NCBI GenBank assembly: GCA_041651155.1
Contig: JBAZJU010000001.1
Location: forward strand, 167,619-231,618
Length of the DNA: 64,000 nucleotides
DNA from: Patescibacteria group bacterium
Lineage (GTDB): Bacteria > Patescibacteriota > Patescibacteriia > CAIXNZ01
Direction of reading: 5' to 3'
The notes under the pieces: generated by a model
Seen by the model: only the letters and a program-made list of their open reading frames with translations
Told to the model about the DNA's origin: nothing
Databases searched by the model: none
Part shown: positions 1-44,528 of the stretch, piece by piece
Layout of the letters: each line of letters opens with the position of its first letter
Position numbering within the stretch: position 1 is the stretch's first letter
Made by a program: the position numbers and the translations under genes

Positions 1-564
1 GCAATATATTACATTGTAATCAAGACAAAAAATAATTACCCATATTTTAAAGAGAATATTTTTTGCGATTCGTTTATTGAGGATTTGAAAATTTGTAAAT
101 CATTGAAAGGTTTTAAGTTATACGCCTTTTCTATTATTTACGATCATGTGAATTTGATAATTAAACCGAATAATCAATTTAATATTTCCAAGATCATTAA
201 ATCATTGAAAGAAAACGTGTCAAGGAATATAAATATTATAATGGGTTATACGTTTAATCAAAATTCCCCGCTCTTCGTAGGCGAAACGACGTCGTTTCGC
301 CTACGAAGGAAGAGGATGAGACTATTTAATCTATTTAAGGGGAATTTTGATGATTCAAATGAAGGGAAAATAGATATTGCTCATTATAAAAAAGGATTTA
401 TAACGAAATTTGGTGATAAAAATAATTACCCAAAATTCAAATGGCAATTATCATTTTACGACCATTATATCCGTTTTCACGATAATCATTTGAAAAAGCA
501 AGGGGATTGGCCTTCGCCAACCGAAGTTGGCTTCGGCCAACGAAGGTTGGGATTATCATTTTGA
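1..564 (+). CDS. IS200/IS605-family Y1 (HUH) transposase / RAYT-like; 5' end lies off-window; probably degenerate
   Basis: Frame is open from base 1 (AIYYIVIKTKNNYPYF resembles the N-terminal beta-strand YHxVxxxKYR). YDHVNLII is a HuH-like motif with the second His replaced by Asn. WQLSFYDHYIRFHDNH matches the catalytic-Tyr region of IS200 TnpA. The ORF is interrupted in-frame by a 36-bp palindrome and ends in a REP-like palindrome. Confidence 0.5.
   Translation, partial: AIYYIVIKTKNNYPYFKENIFCDSFIEDLKICKSLKGFKLYAFSIIYDHVNLIIKPNNQFNISKIIKSLKENVSRNINIIMGYTFNQNSPLFVGETTSFRLRRKRMRLFNLFKGNFDDSNEGKIDIAHYKKGFITKFGDKNNYPKFKWQLSFYDHYIRFHDNHLKKQGDWPSPTEVGFGQRRLGLSF
273..308. repeat. 36-bp perfect palindrome inside the RAYT-like ORF
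   Basis: cttcgtaggcgaaacgacgtcgtttcgcctacgaag is self-complementary, read directly. Confidence 0.85.
507..550. repeat. REP-like compound palindrome (family B); inverted copy at 26943-26986
   Basis: ttggccttcgccaaccgaagttggcttcggccaacgaaggttgg equals the reverse complement of 26943-26986 with 2-3 mismatches. Confidence 0.75.
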
Positions 565-1396: not shown

Positions 1397-1458
1397 GTAA
1401 GATGATTGTAATACAATTGTAAAACAATTGTATTGCTACTGTCTTACTATTGTTTTAC
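1397..1458. repeat. ~60-bp imperfect dyad element, copy A (copy B at 22403-22463)
   Basis: gtaagat..caattgtattgctactgtcttactattgttttac is shared with 22403-22463. Arms are near-complementary. Confidence 0.7.
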
Positions 1459-1464
1459 ATTTTT

Positions 1465-1869
1465 ATGATAAGAATACCGGAAAAAGAGTTAGAAATAACC
1501 TTTTCCCGTGCAGGGGGAAAAGGGGGACAGAATGTCAACAAAGTTGAGACCAAAGCAACTTTGCGCTGGGATGTTTATAATTCTTTGGTTTTGTCGCCTG
1601 CCCAAAAATACTTGATTTTACACAAATTAGCGAATAAGATAACTGAAAAAGGCGATTTGATTTTATGGTCGCAGGCTGAACGCTCCCAGGCGCAAAATAA
1701 AGAGCAGGTAATTGCCAGATTGAATCACTTGATAAATCAGGCCTTGGTCCCTGAGAAGATGAGGTTTAAAACCAAACCAACGAGAGCGTCAAAAGAAAAA
1801 AGAATTCAAACCAAAAAAAGAGTTTCTGAAAAAAAGAAATTAAGGAAAATAAGAATTAATAGCTATTAG
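1465..1869 (+). CDS. arfB: peptidyl-tRNA hydrolase ArfB (alternative ribosome-rescue factor, RF-1 domain)
   Basis: GGKGGQNVNKVETK GGQ motif; basic C-terminal tail; ATG at 1465. Confidence 0.8.
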   Translation: MIRIPEKELEITFSRAGGKGGQNVNKVETKATLRWDVYNSLVLSPAQKYLILHKLANKITEKGDLILWSQAERSQAQNKEQVIARLNHLINQALVPEKMRFKTKPTRASKEKRIQTKKRVSEKKKLRKIRINSY

Positions 1870-2887: not shown

Positions 2888-3346
2888 ATGATAATTACTA
2901 TCTGTTCCACAATTAAATTCTGGCCCCAGATTTTGGAAGTTAAAAAACAGCTGGAAGATATGGGTCATGAAGTTTTAATCCCGCCTCATGAGGTGAAAAA
3001 TGAAACGGGTGATTTTATTCCCGTTGAAGAATATTATAAAATCCGCAGAGAAATGATGGCTAAAGATGGCCAAGAACACGATTGGATTTGGCAGCGTAAA
3101 AAAGAGGCCATCAATTGTCATTTTGCCAAAGTAGACAAGGCTGACGCTGTTTTAATTTTGAATTATGAGAAAAATGGGATTGACAATTACATCGGCGGCA
3201 ATACTTTTTTAGAAATGGGTTTGGCCTTTTGGCTTAATAAACCAATTTATTTAATCAATCCAATCCCCACGGAATTAAGCTACACCGAAGAAATAAAAGG
3301 CATGCAGCCGATTGTGATTAATGGGGATTTAAATTTGATAAAATAA
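2888..3346 (+). CDS. hypothetical protein (possibly nucleoside 2-deoxyribosyltransferase-like fold)
   Basis: Only a weak resemblance; assignment tentative. Confidence 0.3.
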   Translation: MIITICSTIKFWPQILEVKKQLEDMGHEVLIPPHEVKNETGDFIPVEEYYKIRREMMAKDGQEHDWIWQRKKEAINCHFAKVDKADAVLILNYEKNGIDNYIGGNTFLEMGLAFWLNKPIYLINPIPTELSYTEEIKGMQPIVINGDLNLIK

Positions 3347-3351
3347 TTTAT

Positions 3352-3439
3352 GCCCTGCTTTCCTGTCCGCTCGCCTCGGCGAAGCGGGCCAAAGCTTTTG
3401 CGACGGCGGAAGCAGGCTACTTGCCCACTGAAGTGGGGT
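3352..3439 (+). repeat. partial copy (GC-rich core plus cccact..gtggg hairpin) of the structured repeat family seen at 35401-35665 and 36755-37017
   Basis: Shares ctttcctgtccgctcgcctcggcgaagcgggccaaagc..gcgacggcggaag. Closing helix is cctgctttcc/ggaagcagg, which covaries against the other copies. Confidence 0.7.
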
Positions 3440-5133: not shown

Positions 5134-5215
5134 TAAATTCCAATAACCAAACACCAAATTCCAAATAAATTTCAAATCACAAATTCTAAATTCTAAACAG
5201 TTTGAAATTTGTAAT

Positions 5216-5707
5216 TTGAATATTGTGGTTTATTTGAGAATTGGGATTTGCGATTTGGTGCTTATAAATATGGTTTTCAAAAAAATAGAACACAAAATAA
5301 GAAGGATAATTAGCCATCGCCATTTTCAGAAATATGAAAAATACATCAGTTTGATTTTTTGGCTGGCGGCTATTTATTATCTCTCAAATAATTCTTTGCA
5401 AGAATTTGTGATTGTGGCTGACTGGTGGGAATTTATCATCCGCAAGCTGGCGCATATGTTTGAGTATGGCGTTTTAACCTATTTAATTTTCAGAATTTTA
5501 AGCCAGACTGAAAAAAGGCATGTGAACTGGAATTTATTCTGGTCTTTTATTTTTACAGTTTTGTATGCGATTTCTGATGAATATCACCAGACCTTTACTC
5601 TTGGCAGAACTGGCGTTTATACTGATGTGCTGATTGATGCTGCTGGCAGTTTAATTGCGATCTGGCTGATTTATTTAAATTACCGAGATAGAAAGAAATT
5701 AAAATAA
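5216..5707 (+). CDS. VanZ-like membrane protein
   Basis: Multi-TM protein with FEYGVLTYL VanZ-like motif. Confidence 0.45.
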   Translation: MNIVVYLRIGICDLVLINMVFKKIEHKIRRIISHRHFQKYEKYISLIFWLAAIYYLSNNSLQEFVIVADWWEFIIRKLAHMFEYGVLTYLIFRILSQTEKRHVNWNLFWSFIFTVLYAISDEYHQTFTLGRTGVYTDVLIDAAGSLIAIWLIYLNYRDRKKLK

Positions 5708-14198: not shown

Positions 14199-14294
14199 TG
14201 TCCTCTTTTTTTGAAATAGGAAATAGGTAATAGGTAATAAGGATTTGAATATTTTTCCATATTACTTGTTACTTATTACTTATTTCATACAAAT

Positions 14295-16362: not shown

Positions 16363-17043
16363 ATGAAATTAAATAATTTTCAATTTAACAATAAAGATTT
16401 TGCAATTTATACTCGCAGCCAGGCGGATAAAAGCATAATGAAAGAAATTTTTGAATTGCGGGAATATAAAGAAGTTGAAGCAATTATTAAGTCAGCCAAA
16501 CATCCAATCATAGACGCAGGAGCGCAGGCTGGCTTTTTTGTTTTGTACTGCAGGGCTTTAAATCAAGAAGTTAAAATTCTGGCCATTGAACCTGATGAGA
16601 ATAATTTGGAATTACTTAATCAGCATTTGGAAATTAATCAAATTAAAAATGTTGAGGTGATACCAGCTGCGCTGGCTGGCAAAAATGGTTTGCGGGATTT
16701 TTTTATTTCAAATGATACTCATAACCATGGGCTATTTAAAATTTTGGTACCAAAGATAAATAGGGTCAGTAAAGTTAAAACTTTTAGTTTGGATGATTTA
16801 TTGGAGGAGCAGGGAATTGAGAAGGTTGGTTTATTAAAATTAGATATTGAAGGCGCGGAATTTGAAGTATTAGAAAATTTTATTCATTGGGAGAAAATAA
16901 AAAACATTGCTTTGGAATACCACGATTTTAATGGTTTTAAGCATCAAGAAATAGAAAAGATTTTGGCAGAAAATGGTTTTAAAGTGAAAATAAGAAGTTC
17001 AAAGTTTGAGCAGAATTTAGGGTTTATTTTCGGTTTGAAATAA
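16363..17043 (+). CDS. FkbM-family methyltransferase
   Basis: SAM-methyltransferase fold motifs (IIDAGAQAGFF, LAIEPD), FkbM-like length. Confidence 0.65.
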   Translation: MKLNNFQFNNKDFAIYTRSQADKSIMKEIFELREYKEVEAIIKSAKHPIIDAGAQAGFFVLYCRALNQEVKILAIEPDENNLELLNQHLEINQIKNVEVIPAALAGKNGLRDFFISNDTHNHGLFKILVPKINRVSKVKTFSLDDLLEEQGIEKVGLLKLDIEGAEFEVLENFIHWEKIKNIALEYHDFNGFKHQEIEKILAENGFKVKIRSSKFEQNLGFIFGLK

Positions 17044-17141
17044 AAAATTCCCTCTTTGTCATTCCGAGAGTAACGAGGAGTCTATTACATCGGTGTAACA
17101 GATCCTTCACTTCGTTCAGGATGACAAAGAGGGAATTTTTT
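17043..17141. repeat. ~100-bp long hairpin (~20-27 bp stem) between convergent genes; terminator or structured element
   Basis: aaaaattccctctttgtcattcc pairs with ggatgacaaagagggaatttttt; an inner ttacatcggtgtaa hairpin sits in the loop. Confidence 0.6.
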
Positions 17142-17152
17142 ATTTGAGAAGA

Positions 17153-17437: not shown

Positions 17438-17658
17438 ATTGTTCTAGTTATGAATTATGAAATATGAATTATGAAATTAGTTTAGCAAAGGAGTTAGGGT
17501 TTGTCAACAGATTACTTGACTTGGGGAAAAAACATGGTATAATGTAAATACCGACTAAATTGGTTGGTCTTTACTACAGATTACAGATAGTTACAGATAT
17601 ACGGATTTGATCGGAGAAGCTATTTGTAAATCTGTATTGATCCGTAATCTGTAAAATT

Positions 17659-18057
17659 ATGAAGTTTAGCACTAAATCTGAATATGGGTTAAGGGCATTG
17701 ATTTCCTTAGCCCAGCATCATAAAGAACAGCCTTATTCATTGGCTAAAATTGCCCAAGGACAAAAGATTTCTCTGGCATATTTGGAGCGCTTGTTTGCTA
17801 AGTTAAAAAAGGCTAACATTATTAAAAGCGCAAAGGGAATAAAAGGCGGTTATAGTTTAGCTAAGCCGGCGAACAAGATTTCAGTTAAAGAAATCCTGAC
17901 TGCGCTTGAAGGCAGTCTGGCGCCTTACCTTTGTGCGGGGTTTGGCAATTTGTGCAAATTAAATTGTGATTGTTCGGTCAAAATTGTCTGGCAGAAATTG
18001 GAAAGTGCGATGAATAAGACGCTCGAAGAAATTAAATTATCGCAATTAATTAAATAA
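17659..18057 (+). CDS. Rrf2-family transcriptional regulator (IscR-like)
   Basis: MKFSTKSEYGLRALISLA winged-helix N-terminus; Cys cluster. Confidence 0.8.
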   Translation: MKFSTKSEYGLRALISLAQHHKEQPYSLAKIAQGQKISLAYLERLFAKLKKANIIKSAKGIKGGYSLAKPANKISVKEILTALEGSLAPYLCAGFGNLCKLNCDCSVKIVWQKLESAMNKTLEEIKLSQLIK

Positions 18058-18130
18058 GATGATAGATTTTAGATTATAGGTTATAGTATATTCAATCTAA
18101 AATTTAACATCTATAATCTAATCAAAAATT

Positions 18131-21238: not shown

Positions 21239-21314
21239 TTAGTAGAAAGTTTATAAAGTTAGTAAAGTTAAAAGATAGTACTTTATAACTTTATACTTTT
21301 AACTTTAAACTTAT

Positions 21315-22402: not shown

Positions 22403-22463
22403 GTAAGACCATAGTAATATAGTTGTAAGACAATTGTATTACTATGTCTTACTATTGTTTTAC
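22403..22463. repeat. ~60-bp imperfect dyad element, copy B (copy A at 1397-1458)
   Basis: gtaagaccatagtaatatagttgtaagacaattgtattactatgtcttactattgttttac; arms are near-complementary. Confidence 0.7.
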
Positions 22464-22473
22464 CTTCGTTTCC

Positions 22474-22505
22474 TTGACAGGCGCTTTTATTTTTGTTAAG
22501 TTGAA
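22474..22505 (+). promoter_or_regulatory. promoter-like motif TTGACA-N11-TTTTTGTTAAGTTG, shared with 52955-52986
   Basis: Same word string upstream of two unrelated genes, both followed by Shine-Dalgarno GGAGGTTTA; a leader hairpin ttccttgg..ccaaggaa plus T-run lies at 22527-22556. Confidence 0.4.
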
Positions 22506-22574
22506 GTATCTAGCTGTATAGTTAGATTCCTTGGTGTATGCCAAGGAAAAGTTTTTTCACAGGAGGTTTACTGT

Positions 22575-23024
22575 ATGGTAAACGAAGGCAAGGTAAAGTC
22601 TGATGAGGTGAGAATCGTTGGCGGGCCAAATAAGTGGGATTTGGTGATAAAGGCGCTGGCTGATTCACAAACAGTGTTTTTTGATGCTGAAAGAAAAAAT
22701 TGTGCTTTGGGTACAGATTTCGGGAAAAATCGTCTTAAAATTGAAATCAGGGTGCGGGTTGAAGGACTTATTAGGATTGTGATTGATGGTGACTCTTGGC
22801 GAGTATTAGGTCGCGTACTTGGTGATTTTCGAGATTTGTACGAAATTTTTCCTCATGAACAGAGGTATTTTTTAAGAGGAAAATCAGCACCAGCTGAAAA
22901 ATCTGTTGATCCCGTTTACTTTTGGGCAACTTATGATTGCCAATCAAGAACTGGTGAAATGCGGATTGCCATAATTGACCAAAATGAGGATTATCCTTTT
23001 GACCCGAAATATTTTCCTTTCTAA
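22575..23024 (+). CDS. hypothetical protein
   Basis: ORF with strong Shine-Dalgarno caggaggttta; no recognised motif. Confidence 0.4.
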   Translation: MVNEGKVKSDEVRIVGGPNKWDLVIKALADSQTVFFDAERKNCALGTDFGKNRLKIEIRVRVEGLIRIVIDGDSWRVLGRVLGDFRDLYEIFPHEQRYFLRGKSAPAEKSVDPVYFWATYDCQSRTGEMRIAIIDQNEDYPFDPKYFPF

Positions 23025-26942: not shown

Positions 26943-26986
26943 CCAACCTACGTTGGGCGAAGCCAACTTCGGTTGGCGAAGGCCAA
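26943..26986. repeat. REP-like compound palindrome (family B), inverted copy of 507-550
   Basis: ccaacctacgttgggcgaagccaacttcggttggcgaaggccaa. Confidence 0.75.
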
Positions 26987-29896: not shown

Positions 29897-29930
29897 AAAG
29901 AACATGCCACTCTTGGCATGTTCTTTCTCT
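29897..29930. terminator. hairpin gaacatgccactcttggcatgttc (shares the tgccactcttggca core with the hairpin at 30229-30262)
   Basis: A-run upstream and T-rich downstream, so bidirectional terminator-like. Confidence 0.5.
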
Positions 29931-29932
29931 TG

Positions 29933-30164
29933 TGACCCGGCCCCAAAGGGGAGCCTTCGGCTTTGGGGTAGGATGTTTCGTTTTTGATTTATTTATGACC
30001 CGGCCCCAAAGGGGAGCCTTCGGCTCTGGGGTAGGATATTTCGTTTTTGATTTATTTGTGACCCGGCCCCAAAGGGGAGCCTTCGGCTCTGGGGTAGGAT
30101 ATTTCGTTTTTGATTTATTTGTGACCCGGCCCCAAAGGGGAGCCTTCGGCTCTGGGGTTCGAAC
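29933..30164 (-). repeat. tandem array of 4 x 63 bp: decayed tRNA 3'-end remnants each carrying GC hairpins (gagccttcggctc, ccccaaagggg)
   Basis: Units start at 29933, 29996, 30059 and 30122. On the minus strand each ends CCGGGTCA, identical to the tRNA-Lys acceptor 3' end; unit 4 additionally retains a GTTCGAA T-loop. Confidence 0.8.
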
Positions 30165-30452: not shown

Positions 30453-30466
30453 GCTACCAAGTCGTA
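30453..30466 (-). pseudogene. tRNA 5' fragment (acceptor plus D-stem 5' strand, GACTTGGTAGCTC), similar to the tRNA-Lys 5' end
   Basis: The reverse complement of 30453-30466 resembles GACTCGGTAGCTC of tRNA-Lys; the rest of that tRNA is absent. Confidence 0.35.
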
Positions 30467-30575
30467 AAAATTTAAAATGCAAAATGCAAAGTTTAAAGTT
30501 ACAGTTTTAAATTAAAAATTTTTAATTTTTGTTTGTAATTTTTAATTTCGCATTTTGAATTTTTAATTTTTTTGT

Positions 30576-35400: not shown

Positions 35401-35665
35401 GCCAGGCAATGGGCGATTTTTTGATTGGTAATGTGATTCTCCGACGAAGAAGCGATTGGCCAATCGCTCCTTCAATGCGGGGGAATTAATCAAAAAATCG
35501 CCTGTTAAAATTTATACCCCACTTTCTTGTCCGCTCGCCTCGGCGAAGCGGGCCAAAGCATAACGACAGCGGAAGTGGGTTTTTTATTTGGCCTGCTAAA
35601 GCAGTGTATAATTTTGTAAATAAAAAATCCTGAACCATATTGGGTCCAGGATATAAGAGCCGCGA
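35401..35665 (+). repeat. ~265-bp structured multi-hairpin element, copy 1 (candidate structured ncRNA / terminator-associated repeat)
   Basis: Nested long hairpin (caggcgattttttgattgg .. ccaatcaaaaaatcgcctg around the palindrome gaagaagcgattgg/ccaatcgcttcttc). GC-rich core gtccgctcgcctcggcgaagcgggccaaagc closed by cccacttt/aagtggg plus T-run; two further small hairpins follow. 90% identical to 36755-37017. Confidence 0.8.
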
Positions 35666-36754: not shown

Positions 36755-37017
36755 GCCTAGACAGGCGATTTTTTGATTGGCATTTTTTTGACCCGACGAA
36801 GAAGCGATTGCCAATCGCTTCTTCAATGTGGGGGAATTAATCAAAAAATCGCCTGCCAAATTTATGTCCCACTTTCTTGTCCGCTCGCCTCGGCGAAGCG
36901 GGCCAAAGCATAGCGACGGCGGAAGTGAGCTTTTTTATTTGGCCTGCTAAAGCAGGGTATAAATTTTTAAATAAAAAATCCCGAACCACATTGGGTCCAG
37001 GATATAGAGTTGCGGAA
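36755..37017 (+). repeat. ~265-bp structured multi-hairpin element, copy 2
   Basis: Same architecture as 35401-35665; the inner palindrome is perfect here. Confidence 0.8.
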
Positions 37018-38569: not shown

Positions 38570-38640
38570 CTCTGAGATATGAATTATGAGATATGAGATG
38601 ATTTCATAATTCATAGTTCATAATTCGTAATTCAAATATT

Positions 38641-44384: not shown

Positions 44385-44528
44385 TGCTCCTGAAGGGAAT
44401 TGAACCCCCATCTCCAATTGTTTGAATTCCTTTTGTTTAGCCTATGTACACTTAGCTAAGCCGGGATCAAACAATCTCCCAGTTGGGAGGCGTGCCTAGC
44501 CGTTGTTTTGCCATTAAACTACAAGAGC
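44385..44528 (-). ncRNA. 144-nt tRNA-like gene: intact acceptor stem, D-arm and T-arm, anticodon arm replaced by ~85 nt folding into two hairpins
   Basis: 5' GCTCTTG-TA-GTTT-AATGGCA-AAAC .. 3' GGGGG-TTCAATT-CCCTT-CAGGAGC-A. Insert hairpins: ctccc-aact-gggag, and ttgtttga..tcaaacaa enclosing ttagc..gctaa. No canonical anticodon stem-loop found. Confidence 0.4.

What the first reader, a model, noticed from the sequence alone, without database searches (positions are those of the whole stretch)
1397..1458. 60-bp imperfect dyad element present twice (1397-1458 and 22403-22463), each just upstream of a plus-strand gene
Copy B is gtaagaccatagtaatatagtt-gtaagac-aattgtattactatgtcttac followed by tattgttttac. 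Copy A has the same gtaaga..caattgtatt(g/a)ctactgtcttactattgttttac.
The arms are near-complementary (a ~21-bp stem with a bulge around a gtaagac loop).
Copy A overlaps the promoter/start region of arfB. Copy B sits ~110 bp upstream of the hypothetical gene at 22575 and immediately before its TTGACA motif.
The sequence identity is far higher than for neighbouring spacer DNA.
Basis: seen in the sequence. Interest (0 to 1): 0.5.

Follow-up and report, generated by a model that had tools for sequence, protein, structure and literature searches.

The report
Head-to-head 11-bp repeat array
The two "dyads" are real copies of a small intergenic repeat found only in one group of Patescibacteria: six 7-base motifs (GTAAnAC) spaced one DNA turn apart, three facing three. 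The motifs and their spacing are conserved, not the hairpin, so it looks like a protein-binding DNA array whose binding protein is unknown.

Summary
Copy A (1397-1458) and copy B (22403-22463) are 82% identical, share an exact 19-mer, and fold far better than shuffles.

Each copy is six units of an 11-bp repeat, GTAADAC+AATW: three forward units, then three reverse-complemented. The dyad follows automatically from that layout.

Related arrays occur at orthologous sites in close relatives: L053 and L042 for A, L031 for B. They also occur at unrelated loci in other Patescibacteria contigs (L009, L022, L002).

Across these:
- The heptamer core and the 11-bp phase are kept. Orthologs differ at 6.5% of core positions, against 28-50% at the two degenerate positions.
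- The hairpin is not kept. L042 and L002 have one arm only, L031 folds weakly, and the pairing register shifts between copies.
- No covariation is seen.
- Real arrays fold no better than random mixes of units.

No Rfam family matches. Presence is patchy among relatives. One copy lies between convergent genes.

Best reading (about 0.45): a DNA-level array of phased recognition sites for an unidentified DNA-binding protein. Rivals are a REP/MITE-like dispersed element, an RNA hairpin between genes, and a functionless repeat. Interest is modest: a new variant of a known kind.

The parts
1397..1458 (.). Copy A: six-unit array, GTAAGAT GTAATAC GTAAAAC | GTATTGC GTCTTAC GTTTTAC. Units start at 1397, 1408, 1419, 1430, 1441 and 1452.
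   Evidence: (family D4, 11-nt spacing).
1397..1429 (+). Copy A forward half: three GTAADAC+spacer units. This half alone is kept in the ortholog L042 (9958-9986).
1430..1458 (-). Copy A reverse half: three units that read GTAADAC on the minus strand. Nearly identical to the reverse half of copy B.
22403..22463 (.). Copy B: six-unit array, GTAAGAC GTAATAT GTAAGAC | GTATTAC GTCTTAC GTTTTAC. Units start at 22403, 22414, 22425, 22436, 22446 and 22457, with one 10-nt step.
1412..1421 (.). TACAATTGTA, the palindromic junction between two forward units. It matches the 10-bp TACANNTGTA core of CopY/BlaI-type operators but not the extended 16-bp consensus.
   Evidence: Consensus taken from PMC7253601.
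1387..1389 (+). Stop codon of the HIT-family gene, 7 nt (a T7 run) before copy A.
1465..1869 (+). arfB (RF-1 domain). Its ATG lies 6 nt after copy A, with no Shine-Dalgarno sequence and no room for a separate promoter.
22474..22502 (+). Promoter-like TTGACA, 17-nt spacer, TAAGTT, 10 nt downstream of copy B. Conserved in relatives with and without the array, so it belongs to the hyp149 gene unit and not to the array.
22575..23024 (+). Hypothetical 149-aa gene downstream of copy B. No Pfam or NCBIfam family; absent in the closest MraY relative, L054.

Best explanation
What it is (well supported). It is a low-copy dispersed intergenic repeat of one Parcubacteria-like lineage of Patescibacteria. 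The unit is 11 bp: G-T-A-A-D-A-C followed by A-A-T-W. Three or four units in one orientation abut about three units in the opposite orientation, so all heptamers sit one helical turn apart. The dyad, and therefore the hairpin, is an automatic by-product of this head-to-head layout.

How it most likely works (inferred). The array acts as double-stranded DNA. The phased heptamers would be recognition sites for a sequence-specific DNA-binding protein that assembles cooperatively along one face of the helix, as two converging sets of three. Iterons, Pho/ArcA-box arrays and MraZ or centromere repeats are used in this way. In every case an upstream gene reads into the array. The bound complex would then act as a boundary or roadblock, or as a regulator, between the upstream transcription unit and whatever follows: arfB at site A, the hyp149 promoter at site B.

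Shown: the repeat anatomy, the family, the position-specific conservation and the lack of structural covariation.
Inferred: that binding is on DNA, that a protein is involved, and what the effect on transcription is.
For: Anatomy.
- 48 units from 8 arrays give the consensus GTAADAC-AATW.
- Position 5 is never C.
- Unit spacing is 11 nt in most steps of the arrays listed, with occasional 9- or 10-nt steps.

The family is real.
- The left halves of L009, L022, L031 and L053 match although they were not part of the search pattern.
- A profile built from four arrays scores the others at E-values of about 1e-7 to 1e-11.

Position-specific constraint.
- Between orthologous arrays, heptamer core positions differ at 7/108 (6.5%).
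- Position 5 differs at 5/18, position W at 8/16 and the AAT spacer at 8/47.
- Third codon positions of the flanking genes are only 46-79% identical, whereas the arrays are 82-90% identical.
- Forward and reverse units are conserved alike. That fits recognition of duplex DNA, not of one RNA strand.

The hairpin is not what is kept.
- One-armed arrays exist in L042 and L002.
- The fold is weak in L031.
- The pairing register differs between A/B and L009.
- Two registers fit equally well, with covariation no higher than in shuffles.
- Real arrays are no more stable than random unit combinations; the fraction of random arrays at least as stable is 0.12-0.98.

Orientation. All four independent two-armed loci are forward-then-reverse, never reverse-then-forward, although either order would make a hairpin.

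Position. Copy B and its ortholog L031 end 10 bp upstream of a conserved -35 element.
Against: - No candidate binding protein was found. The only transcription factor seen among the roughly 30 window proteins scanned against Pfam (mostly the small ORFs) is an Rrf2 protein, which has its own different repeats upstream.
- The neighbouring genes are unrelated: arfB, hyp149, folD, a convergent PDZ-domain gene and type IV coupling protein fragments. No regulon is visible.
- Presence is patchy. The array is missing at the same spacers in L044, L045, L046, L052, L032, L054 and L056. A regulatory site of any importance would be expected to persist.
- The order of the degenerate base (G, T, A) recurs at non-orthologous loci. 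That points to copying of whole arrays, not independent selection of sites.
- The 11-bp period could simply be inherited from tandem duplication.
- The ortholog comparisons are few, and the three pairs for site A share phylogeny.
Confidence: 0.45

Rival explanations
1. A selfish or semi-selfish dispersed repeat, REP/BIME-like or MITE-like. The two arms would be the ends of a miniature element, each carrying three binding sites for a transposase or recombinase. The nearby RAYT-like Y1 transposase is one possible candidate. Whole arrays are copied to new intergenic sites.
For: - The head-to-head arms look like terminal inverted repeats with internal sub-repeats.
- The G, T, A order of the degenerate base recurs in non-orthologous copies: A, L009, and cyclically in L022.
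- The reverse halves of A and B are almost identical.
- Presence and absence are patchy among close relatives.
- A gene best matching the REP-associated tyrosine transposase model (NF047646, 46-60 bits) lies 0.4-0.8 kb upstream of site A. It is present in exactly the three genomes that carry the array there (window, L042, L053) and absent at that locus in the four that lack it.
Against: - There are no target-site duplications.
- There are no clean filled-versus-empty boundaries; the whole spacer is hypervariable.
- The outermost units are not each other's complement in most copies (GTAAGAC versus GTTTTAC).
- Copy number is low: 2 in 64 kb, and none beyond the orthologous sites in about 170 kb of relatives.
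- The RAYT-like gene scores below the family cut-off of 80 bits. It is not directly flanked by the arrays, is interrupted by other palindromes in the window, and is absent near copy B.
- Inherited copies keep the heptamer core while neutral positions diverge. Decaying relics would not do this.
Confidence: 0.2
2. An RNA-level hairpin in the transcript of the upstream gene. It could be an intercistronic or 3'-end stabiliser, a processing site or a weak terminator. This genome has many AT-rich hairpins built from tandem repeats in co-directional spacers, and this would be one of them.
For: - The predicted hairpins are strong, z -5.6 to -7.0 in A, B, L053 and L009.
- A and B are 6-8 kcal/mol more stable on the sense strand because of G-U pairs.
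- In A, B and L053 a U-rich tail (UAUUGUUUUAC) follows the stem.
- The window has a class of similar forward-then-reverse AT-rich hairpins that fill whole co-directional spacers: 14199-14294, 18058-18130, 21239-21314 and 38570-38640. None of them lies in a divergent spacer.
- Relatives that lack array B carry another hairpin after mraY.
Against: - Orthologs lose the stem (L042, L031) while keeping the units.
- The pairing register is not conserved and there is no covariation.
- Stability is no better than for random unit combinations.
- In L009 the other strand folds better, and in L022 and L053 the two strands are equal.
- L009, L022 and L031 have no U-tract.
- The genome uses canonical GC-stem plus T-run terminators elsewhere, and L009 has one 20 nt after the array.
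- The degenerate positions lie within the stem yet evolve freely.
- A strong terminator at A would leave arfB without a promoter.
Confidence: 0.15
3. A functionless by-product of repeat dynamics. Slippage would expand an 11-bp unit, template switching would copy one arm into the other, and concerted evolution would keep the units alike.
For: - Almost every spacer in the window holds short tandem repeats, mostly of 7-bp period.
- At the same orthologous spacer, different relatives carry different repeat units, such as GTAATTA, GTCATTA, GTATTAA and TACGAAT.
- The number of units varies between copies.
Against: - The same unit, and even the same order of units, recurs at unrelated loci in different genomes.
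- The unit order is unchanged between window, L053 and L042, so there has been no recent homogenisation. The core is nevertheless kept while positions 5 and 11 drift.
- Only the forward-then-reverse orientation is seen.
Confidence: 0.15

Closest known systems
Multi-repeat binding sites of OmpR/PhoB-family response regulators (Pho box; ArcA box with 2-5 direct repeats)
   Same: A conserved element of about 7 bp plus an A/T-rich 4-bp spacer, repeated with 11-bp centre-to-centre spacing, in variable numbers over 30-60 bp (ArcA: PMC3798270; Pho box from my own knowledge). Copy B sits just upstream of a -35 element.
   Different: Here two sets of repeats face each other. No response regulator or matching regulon was seen. 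Copy A abuts a start codon, and the L009 copy lies between convergent genes.
Plasmid iterons and type II centromeres, for example parC of plasmid R1 with two sets of five 11-bp repeats (own knowledge)
   Same: Two blocks of 11-bp repeats. A small protein would coat them cooperatively along one face of the helix.
   Different: parC repeats are direct and flank the par promoter, next to parMR. The window copies are chromosomal and have no par or rep genes nearby. Only L002 lies near conjugation-type genes.
REP/BIME elements with their RAYT (Y1) transposase
   Same: Imperfect palindromes in intergenic DNA, often just after stop codons. A RAYT-like gene is in the neighbourhood of copy A.
   Different: Low copy number. 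No GTAG head. Internal 11-bp periodicity. Not directly flanking the RAYT-like gene. The GC-rich nested palindromes in the same window are better REP candidates.
CopY/CopR/BlaI/MecI operators (TACANNTGTA)
   Same: Junctions between units read (D)ACAATTGTA. Copy A contains a perfect TACAATTGTA, and L. lactis CopR boxes read GTTTACAATTGTAAAC.
   Different: The extended 16-bp consensus RNYKACANNTGTMRNY is not met. No such repressor and no cop or bla genes were found in the window. The boxes would overlap at 11-bp spacing.
Intrinsic (Rho-independent) terminators
   Same: A stem-loop right after a stop codon, with a U-rich tail in some copies.
   Different: The stem is AT-rich. The tail is inconsistent between copies. 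The stem is not conserved in orthologs. The genome has ordinary GC-rich terminators.
STRR-type short tandemly repeated intergenic heptamers of cyanobacteria (own knowledge)
   Same: The window's spacers are full of short tandem repeats of unknown role. The array shares that style.
   Different: The period is 11 bp, not 7. It has a fixed head-to-head layout. It is dispersed and conserved across loci and genomes.

Membership tests
Curated RNA family (Rfam) | Match to a covariance model at its gathering score | tested here: not met
   The gathering-score scan of the window finds only tRNAs. Permissive scans of both sites give only generic miRNA-hairpin models at 16-23 bits, against cut-offs of 48-91.
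Structured cis-regulatory RNA | A conserved pairing register supported by compensatory changes | tested here: not met
   Two registers 11 nt apart pair 86% and 82% of cells. The covariation score equals the shuffled mean. Orthologs L042 and L031 lose the stem. Real arrays fold no better than random unit mixes.
Intrinsic terminator | GC-rich stem directly followed by a U-tract | tested here: not met
   The scan flags B only marginally (17 pairs, 3 of them GC) and does not flag A. The tail is U-rich in A, B and L053 but not in L009, L022 or L031.
Intrinsic terminator | Lies at the end of a transcription unit, with a promoter for the next gene downstream | tested here: inconclusive
   B is followed by a promoter-like site. 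A leaves 6 nt before the arfB ATG. L009 is followed by a separate canonical terminator. No transcript data are available.
REP/BIME with RAYT | Many copies per genome in intergenic DNA | tested here: inconclusive
   There are 2 copies in 64 kb and none beyond the orthologous sites in about 170 kb of relatives. The rest of the source genome could not be fetched.
REP/BIME with RAYT | RAYT gene flanked by its own REPs; conserved GTAG head next to the hairpin | tested here: not met
   The RAYT-like gene (46-60 bits, cut-off 80) lies 0.4-0.8 kb from copy A with genes in between. Nothing comparable is near copy B. Units begin with GTAA, not GTAG.
MITE | Target-site duplication and clean filled-versus-empty sites | tested here: not met
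   The flanks show no duplication. Spacers without the array are non-homologous throughout, not precisely empty.
OmpR/PhoB-type repeat arrays | Recognition elements at 11-bp centre-to-centre spacing with an A/T spacer | tested here: met
   The unit is GTAADAC+AATW, and most steps between units are 11 nt. This is met in form only.
OmpR/PhoB-type repeat arrays | Cognate response regulator present and sites at regulated promoters | tested here: not met
   No response regulator was found among the window proteins scanned. Only B and L031 abut a -35 element. L009 has no downstream gene. The rest of the genome was not searched.
CopY/BlaI/MecI operator | TACANNTGTA core within RNYKACANNTGTMRNY | tested here: not met
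   The core is perfect once in A (1412-1421) and 9/10 in B. The outer positions of the 16-mer fail at 3 of 6. Consensus from PMC7253601.
Plasmid iteron or centromere | Adjacent rep or par genes whose product binds the repeats | tested here: not met
   No rep or par genes lie near A or B. L002 lies next to TraG/VirD4-type fragments only.

The most novel reading that the evidence does not exclude
The arrays are chromosomal landing pads for a still-unknown oligomeric DNA-binding protein of Patescibacteria. An AbrB/MraZ-fold or winged-helix protein is one possibility. The protein would load as two converging trimers on one face of the helix and act as a transcription-unit boundary or roadblock. 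That would be a compact protein-based substitute for terminators and operators in these tiny genomes, with the sites spread by copying of whole arrays.
Probability: 0.15. Interest if true: 0.6.

Novelty: new variant of a known kind. Interest (0 to 1): 0.33.

Why it matters
Almost nothing is known about cis-regulatory DNA or DNA-binding proteins in Patescibacteria. A short element with a clear grammar offers a concrete bait for finding its binding protein by pull-down or by phylogenetic co-occurrence. The grammar here is a 7-bp core, one-turn phasing, a fixed head-to-head layout, and base-by-base constraint in inherited copies.

There is also a methodological lesson. A striking dyad can be a by-product of repeat layout, and here comparison with relatives showed that the pairing is not what is conserved. 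If the element turns out to be only a dispersed repeat, it is still a useful marker of rapid spacer turnover in these genomes.

Tried and rejected
- Exact 18-mer scans of the genome and metagenome collections. Most hits (L001, L003, L004, L010-L021, L024-L030) were chance matches in coding or unrelated DNA. Only L002/L023, L009 and L022 were relatives.
- Three viral-contig scans. They returned generic 11-bp tandem repeats forced by the pattern, plus one weak forward-forward-reverse site (L036) upstream of a MazE/AbrB-like gene. That gene scores 20 bits, below its cut-off. This is a lead, not evidence.
- Sigma-70 promoter inside the array. The -35-like (TTGTAA) and -10-like (TACAAT/TACTAT) hexamers are spaced at multiples of 11 bp, never 16-18 bp. 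The scan found nothing on the + strand at A. Rejected as the main role.
- Orthologs of the genes flanking L009 and L022 in the window and related loci: none found.
- BirA, LacI/CcpA, GntR/FadR, MraZ, Fur/Zur, IHF, attC and TIGR-array resemblances, all recalled from memory. Either the half-site geometry or the sequence does not fit, or the partner genes are absent. None was pursued as a membership claim.
- Literature searches for intergenic repeats or hairpins in Patescibacteria/CPR found nothing relevant.
- Walking further along the 294-kb source contig was not possible with the look-up rules.

Full report
**Observation.**
Both sites exist as described. The cores align at 82% identity over about 62 nt while the flanks do not align. 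A 19-mer is shared exactly. An 18-mer from it, with up to 3 mismatches, hits 4 times against 0.06 expected. On the + strand the copies fold to -21.5 kcal/mol (A) and -27.0 kcal/mol (B), with z-scores of -6.2 and -7.0. The same sequences occur in independent assemblies of the same organism (L005-L008). The organism is a Patescibacteria MAG. Its nearest protein relatives are labelled Parcubacteria, and the cluster name of the hyp149 protein is 'Patescibacteria group bacterium'.

**Anatomy.**
Read in 11-nt steps, each copy is six units:
- Copy A: GTAAGAT GTAATAC GTAAAAC | GTATTGC GTCTTAC GTTTTAC
- Copy B: GTAAGAC GTAATAT GTAAGAC | GTATTAC GTCTTAC GTTTTAC

That is three forward heptamers (GTAANAC) followed by three reverse-complemented ones (GTNTTAC). 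The repeat finder independently reports the 11-nt register (family D4). The two-unit pattern is enriched, 14 hits against 3.5 expected, and 10 of the 14 hits lie in the two copies. Chains of three or more phased units occur only at these two places in the window, against a mean of 0.2 in shuffles. Three units facing three units is necessarily a long imperfect palindrome, so the dyad needs no separate explanation.

**Context in the window.**
- Copy A fills the spacer between a HIT-family gene and arfB. A T7 run precedes it, and the arfB ATG follows after 6 nt with no Shine-Dalgarno sequence.
- Copy B lies 41 nt after mraY. It ends 10 nt before a promoter-like TTGACA, 17-nt spacer, TAAGTT. Next come a leader with two small hairpins, AGGAGG, and a lineage-specific 149-aa gene with no family match.

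**Relatives at other loci.**
One exact-word scan of each large collection found three further arrays among many chance hits.
- L009: GTAAGAC GTAATAA GTAAAAC | GTCTTAC GTTTTAC GTCTTAC. It lies right after a DUF212 gene and before a convergent PDZ-domain gene. A canonical terminator follows 20 nt later.
- L022: three to four forward and four reverse units between glyA and folD.
- L002/L023: six units in one orientation only, next to TraG/VirD4-type fragments, with no hairpin at all (z about 0).

The search word lay in the right half of the element. The matching left halves are therefore independent evidence of homology.

**Orthologous sites.**
Site A (HIT-arfB spacer):
- L053 has the full six-unit array. 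It is 90% identical to copy A, while third codon positions of the flanking genes are 46% and 66% identical.
- L042 keeps only the three forward units, in the same G, T, A order.
- L044, L045, L046 and L052 have unrelated short repeats instead.

Site B (after mraY):
- L031 has four forward and three reverse units, with the pairing register shifted by one unit and a weak fold (z -2.8).
- L032/L033 and L056 keep the promoter, leader and gene but have other sequence upstream.
- L054, the closest relative by MraY, lacks the gene and the array and has an ordinary terminator there.

A profile of four arrays finds no further copies in 233 kb of window plus relatives.

**What is conserved.**
- Pooling 48 units gives G T A A D A C A A T W. 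Position 5 is never C, and the AAT of the spacer is strongly kept.
- Most steps between units are 11 nt, with occasional 9- or 10-nt steps.
- Between orthologous arrays the six core positions differ at 6.5%, the AAT spacer at 17%, position 5 at 28% and the last spacer base at 50%.
- The two degenerate positions therefore drift at roughly the rate of silent sites, while the core is held.
- Forward and reverse units behave alike.

**What is not conserved.**
- The hairpin. Two arrays have one arm only, and one ortholog folds weakly.
- The loop position. It sits in unit 3 in A, B and L053 but between units 3 and 4 in L009.
- On a five-sequence alignment the two registers pair 86% and 82% of cells. 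Covariation is no higher than in column shuffles.
- Arrays assembled at random from the pooled forward and reverse units fold as well as the real ones.
- No Rfam family matches.

**Interpretation.**
Base-specific constraint on a 7-bp core, equal in both orientations and held at one-turn phasing, is the signature of recognition on duplex DNA. Pairing, meanwhile, is free to change. I therefore favour an array of phased binding sites for an unidentified DNA-binding protein (about 0.45). The fixed forward-then-reverse order at all four independent two-armed loci also fits protein geometry better than a hairpin, which either order would give. Its effect is inferred only. An upstream gene always reads into the array, so a boundary or roadblock, or a regulatory complex in front of arfB and of the hyp149 promoter, would fit all contexts, including the convergent pair in L009.

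**Weaknesses of this reading.**
- No binding protein was found. The only regulator seen among the window proteins scanned is an Rrf2 protein with different repeats upstream.
- No common theme links the neighbouring genes.
- Presence is patchy among close relatives.
- The recurring G, T, A order at unrelated loci shows that whole arrays were copied.

The patchy presence and the whole-array copying keep a REP/MITE-like dispersed element alive as a rival (0.2). A RAYT-like Y1 transposase gene lies 0.4-0.8 kb upstream of site A in exactly the three genomes that carry the array there. Against this rival:
- There are no target duplications.
- There are no clean empty sites.
- Copy number is low.
- The gene does not flank the arrays.

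An RNA hairpin role (0.15) is suggested by the many AT-rich repeat-built hairpins in co-directional spacers of this window and by sense-strand G-U pairs in A and B. The comparative data argue against it for this family. A purely neutral repeat (0.15) fits the rapid turnover of spacers but not the core-specific constraint.

**Comparison with known systems.**
- The closest in design are the multi-repeat sites of OmpR/PhoB-type regulators, such as ArcA with two to five direct repeats at 11-bp spacing, and 11-bp plasmid iterons or centromeres.
- The unit junctions resemble the TACANNTGTA core of CopY/BlaI operators but fail the extended consensus.
- None of these memberships is met, because the partner proteins and gene contexts are absent.
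- No literature on such repeats in Patescibacteria was found.

**Verdict.**
This is a real, lineage-restricted, modular intergenic element. It is a new variant of a known kind (short dispersed repeats or iteron-like arrays), and its binding partner and function are unknown. Interest is modest. Its main value is as a defined bait for finding a DNA-binding protein in an unexplored group, and as a caution that a dyad can arise from repeat layout alone.

Noticed in passing
window 22474-22574: The promoter-like TTGACA/17/TAAGTT and a leader with two small hairpins, each with a GUAU-type loop, are conserved upstream of the hyp149 gene in L031, L032/L033 and L056, even where the array is absent. The second hairpin (22527-22548) is followed by a T-run just before the ribosome-binding site. 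This is a candidate attenuator or cis-regulatory leader for a gene of unknown function.
   Followed up: partly
window 14199-14294, 18058-18130, 21239-21314, 38570-38640, 5134-5260, 30466-30571: Most spacers carry 7-bp-period tandem repeats. Several are arranged forward-then-reverse as AT-rich hairpins that fill whole co-directional spacers up to the next start codon, which lacks a Shine-Dalgarno sequence. The hairpin at 14199-14294 is -31.8 kcal/mol on the sense strand against -15.7 on the other. None lies in a divergent or convergent spacer.
   Followed up: partly
window 507-550 and 26943-26986; window ~269-317; L031 1628-1668: GC-rich nested palindromes of the type CCTTCG-xxxx-CGAAG-xxxx-CTTCGG-xxxx-CGAAGG. 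The two window copies at 507-550 and 26943-26986 are 95% complementary. Two such palindromes lie inside the RAYT-like ORF, and a similar one is inserted after mraY in L031 but not in the window. They are REP-like or RPE-like insertions.
   Followed up: partly
window 1-564 (full gene in L007 1984-2592): This Y1 (HUH) transposase gene best matches the REP-associated tyrosine transposase model, but below its cut-off (46-60 bits against 80). In the window it appears to be interrupted by palindromic inserts. Intact versions are in L042 and L053.
   Followed up: partly
window ~17570-17655: TACAGAT repeats, three forward and then two reverse (ATCTGTA), lie directly upstream of an Rrf2-family regulator gene (17659-18057) and the following IscU/NifS genes. 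This is a likely operator of that regulator.
   Followed up: no
window 29930-30158: A 63-bp tandem repeat, 3.6 copies at 97% identity, with GC-rich mini-hairpins, lies next to tRNA-Lys.
   Followed up: no
window 44385-44528 (-): Rfam tRNA hit spanning 144 nt (39 bits) that ARAGORN did not call. It may be a tRNA with an insertion or intron.
   Followed up: no
window 35412-35655 and 36764-37006; also 3344-3421: A segment of about 240 bp is duplicated 1351 bp apart at 83-93% identity. It contains a GC-rich element (…GTCCGCTCGCCTCGGCGAAGCGGGCC…) that also occurs at 3344-3421.
   Followed up: no
window 17038-17145: A 52-nt-arm palindrome containing the motif GTCATTCCGAGAGTAACGAGGAGTC lies between convergent genes. 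A similar motif follows the array in L022.
   Followed up: no
L036 2463-2501 (IMG/VR contig): GTAAAAC / GTAATAC / GTCTTAC units lie about 40 bp upstream of a 58-aa MazE/AbrB-like gene (20 bits, below cut-off) and a 577-aa gene with no family. This is a weak lead that an AbrB-fold protein might bind such heptamers, and it could be a chance match.
   Followed up: partly
L056 11048-11100: In the relative that lacks array B, the same spacer carries TACGAAT repeats at 8-11-bp steps. This shows how quickly different short repeats replace each other at one site.
   Followed up: no
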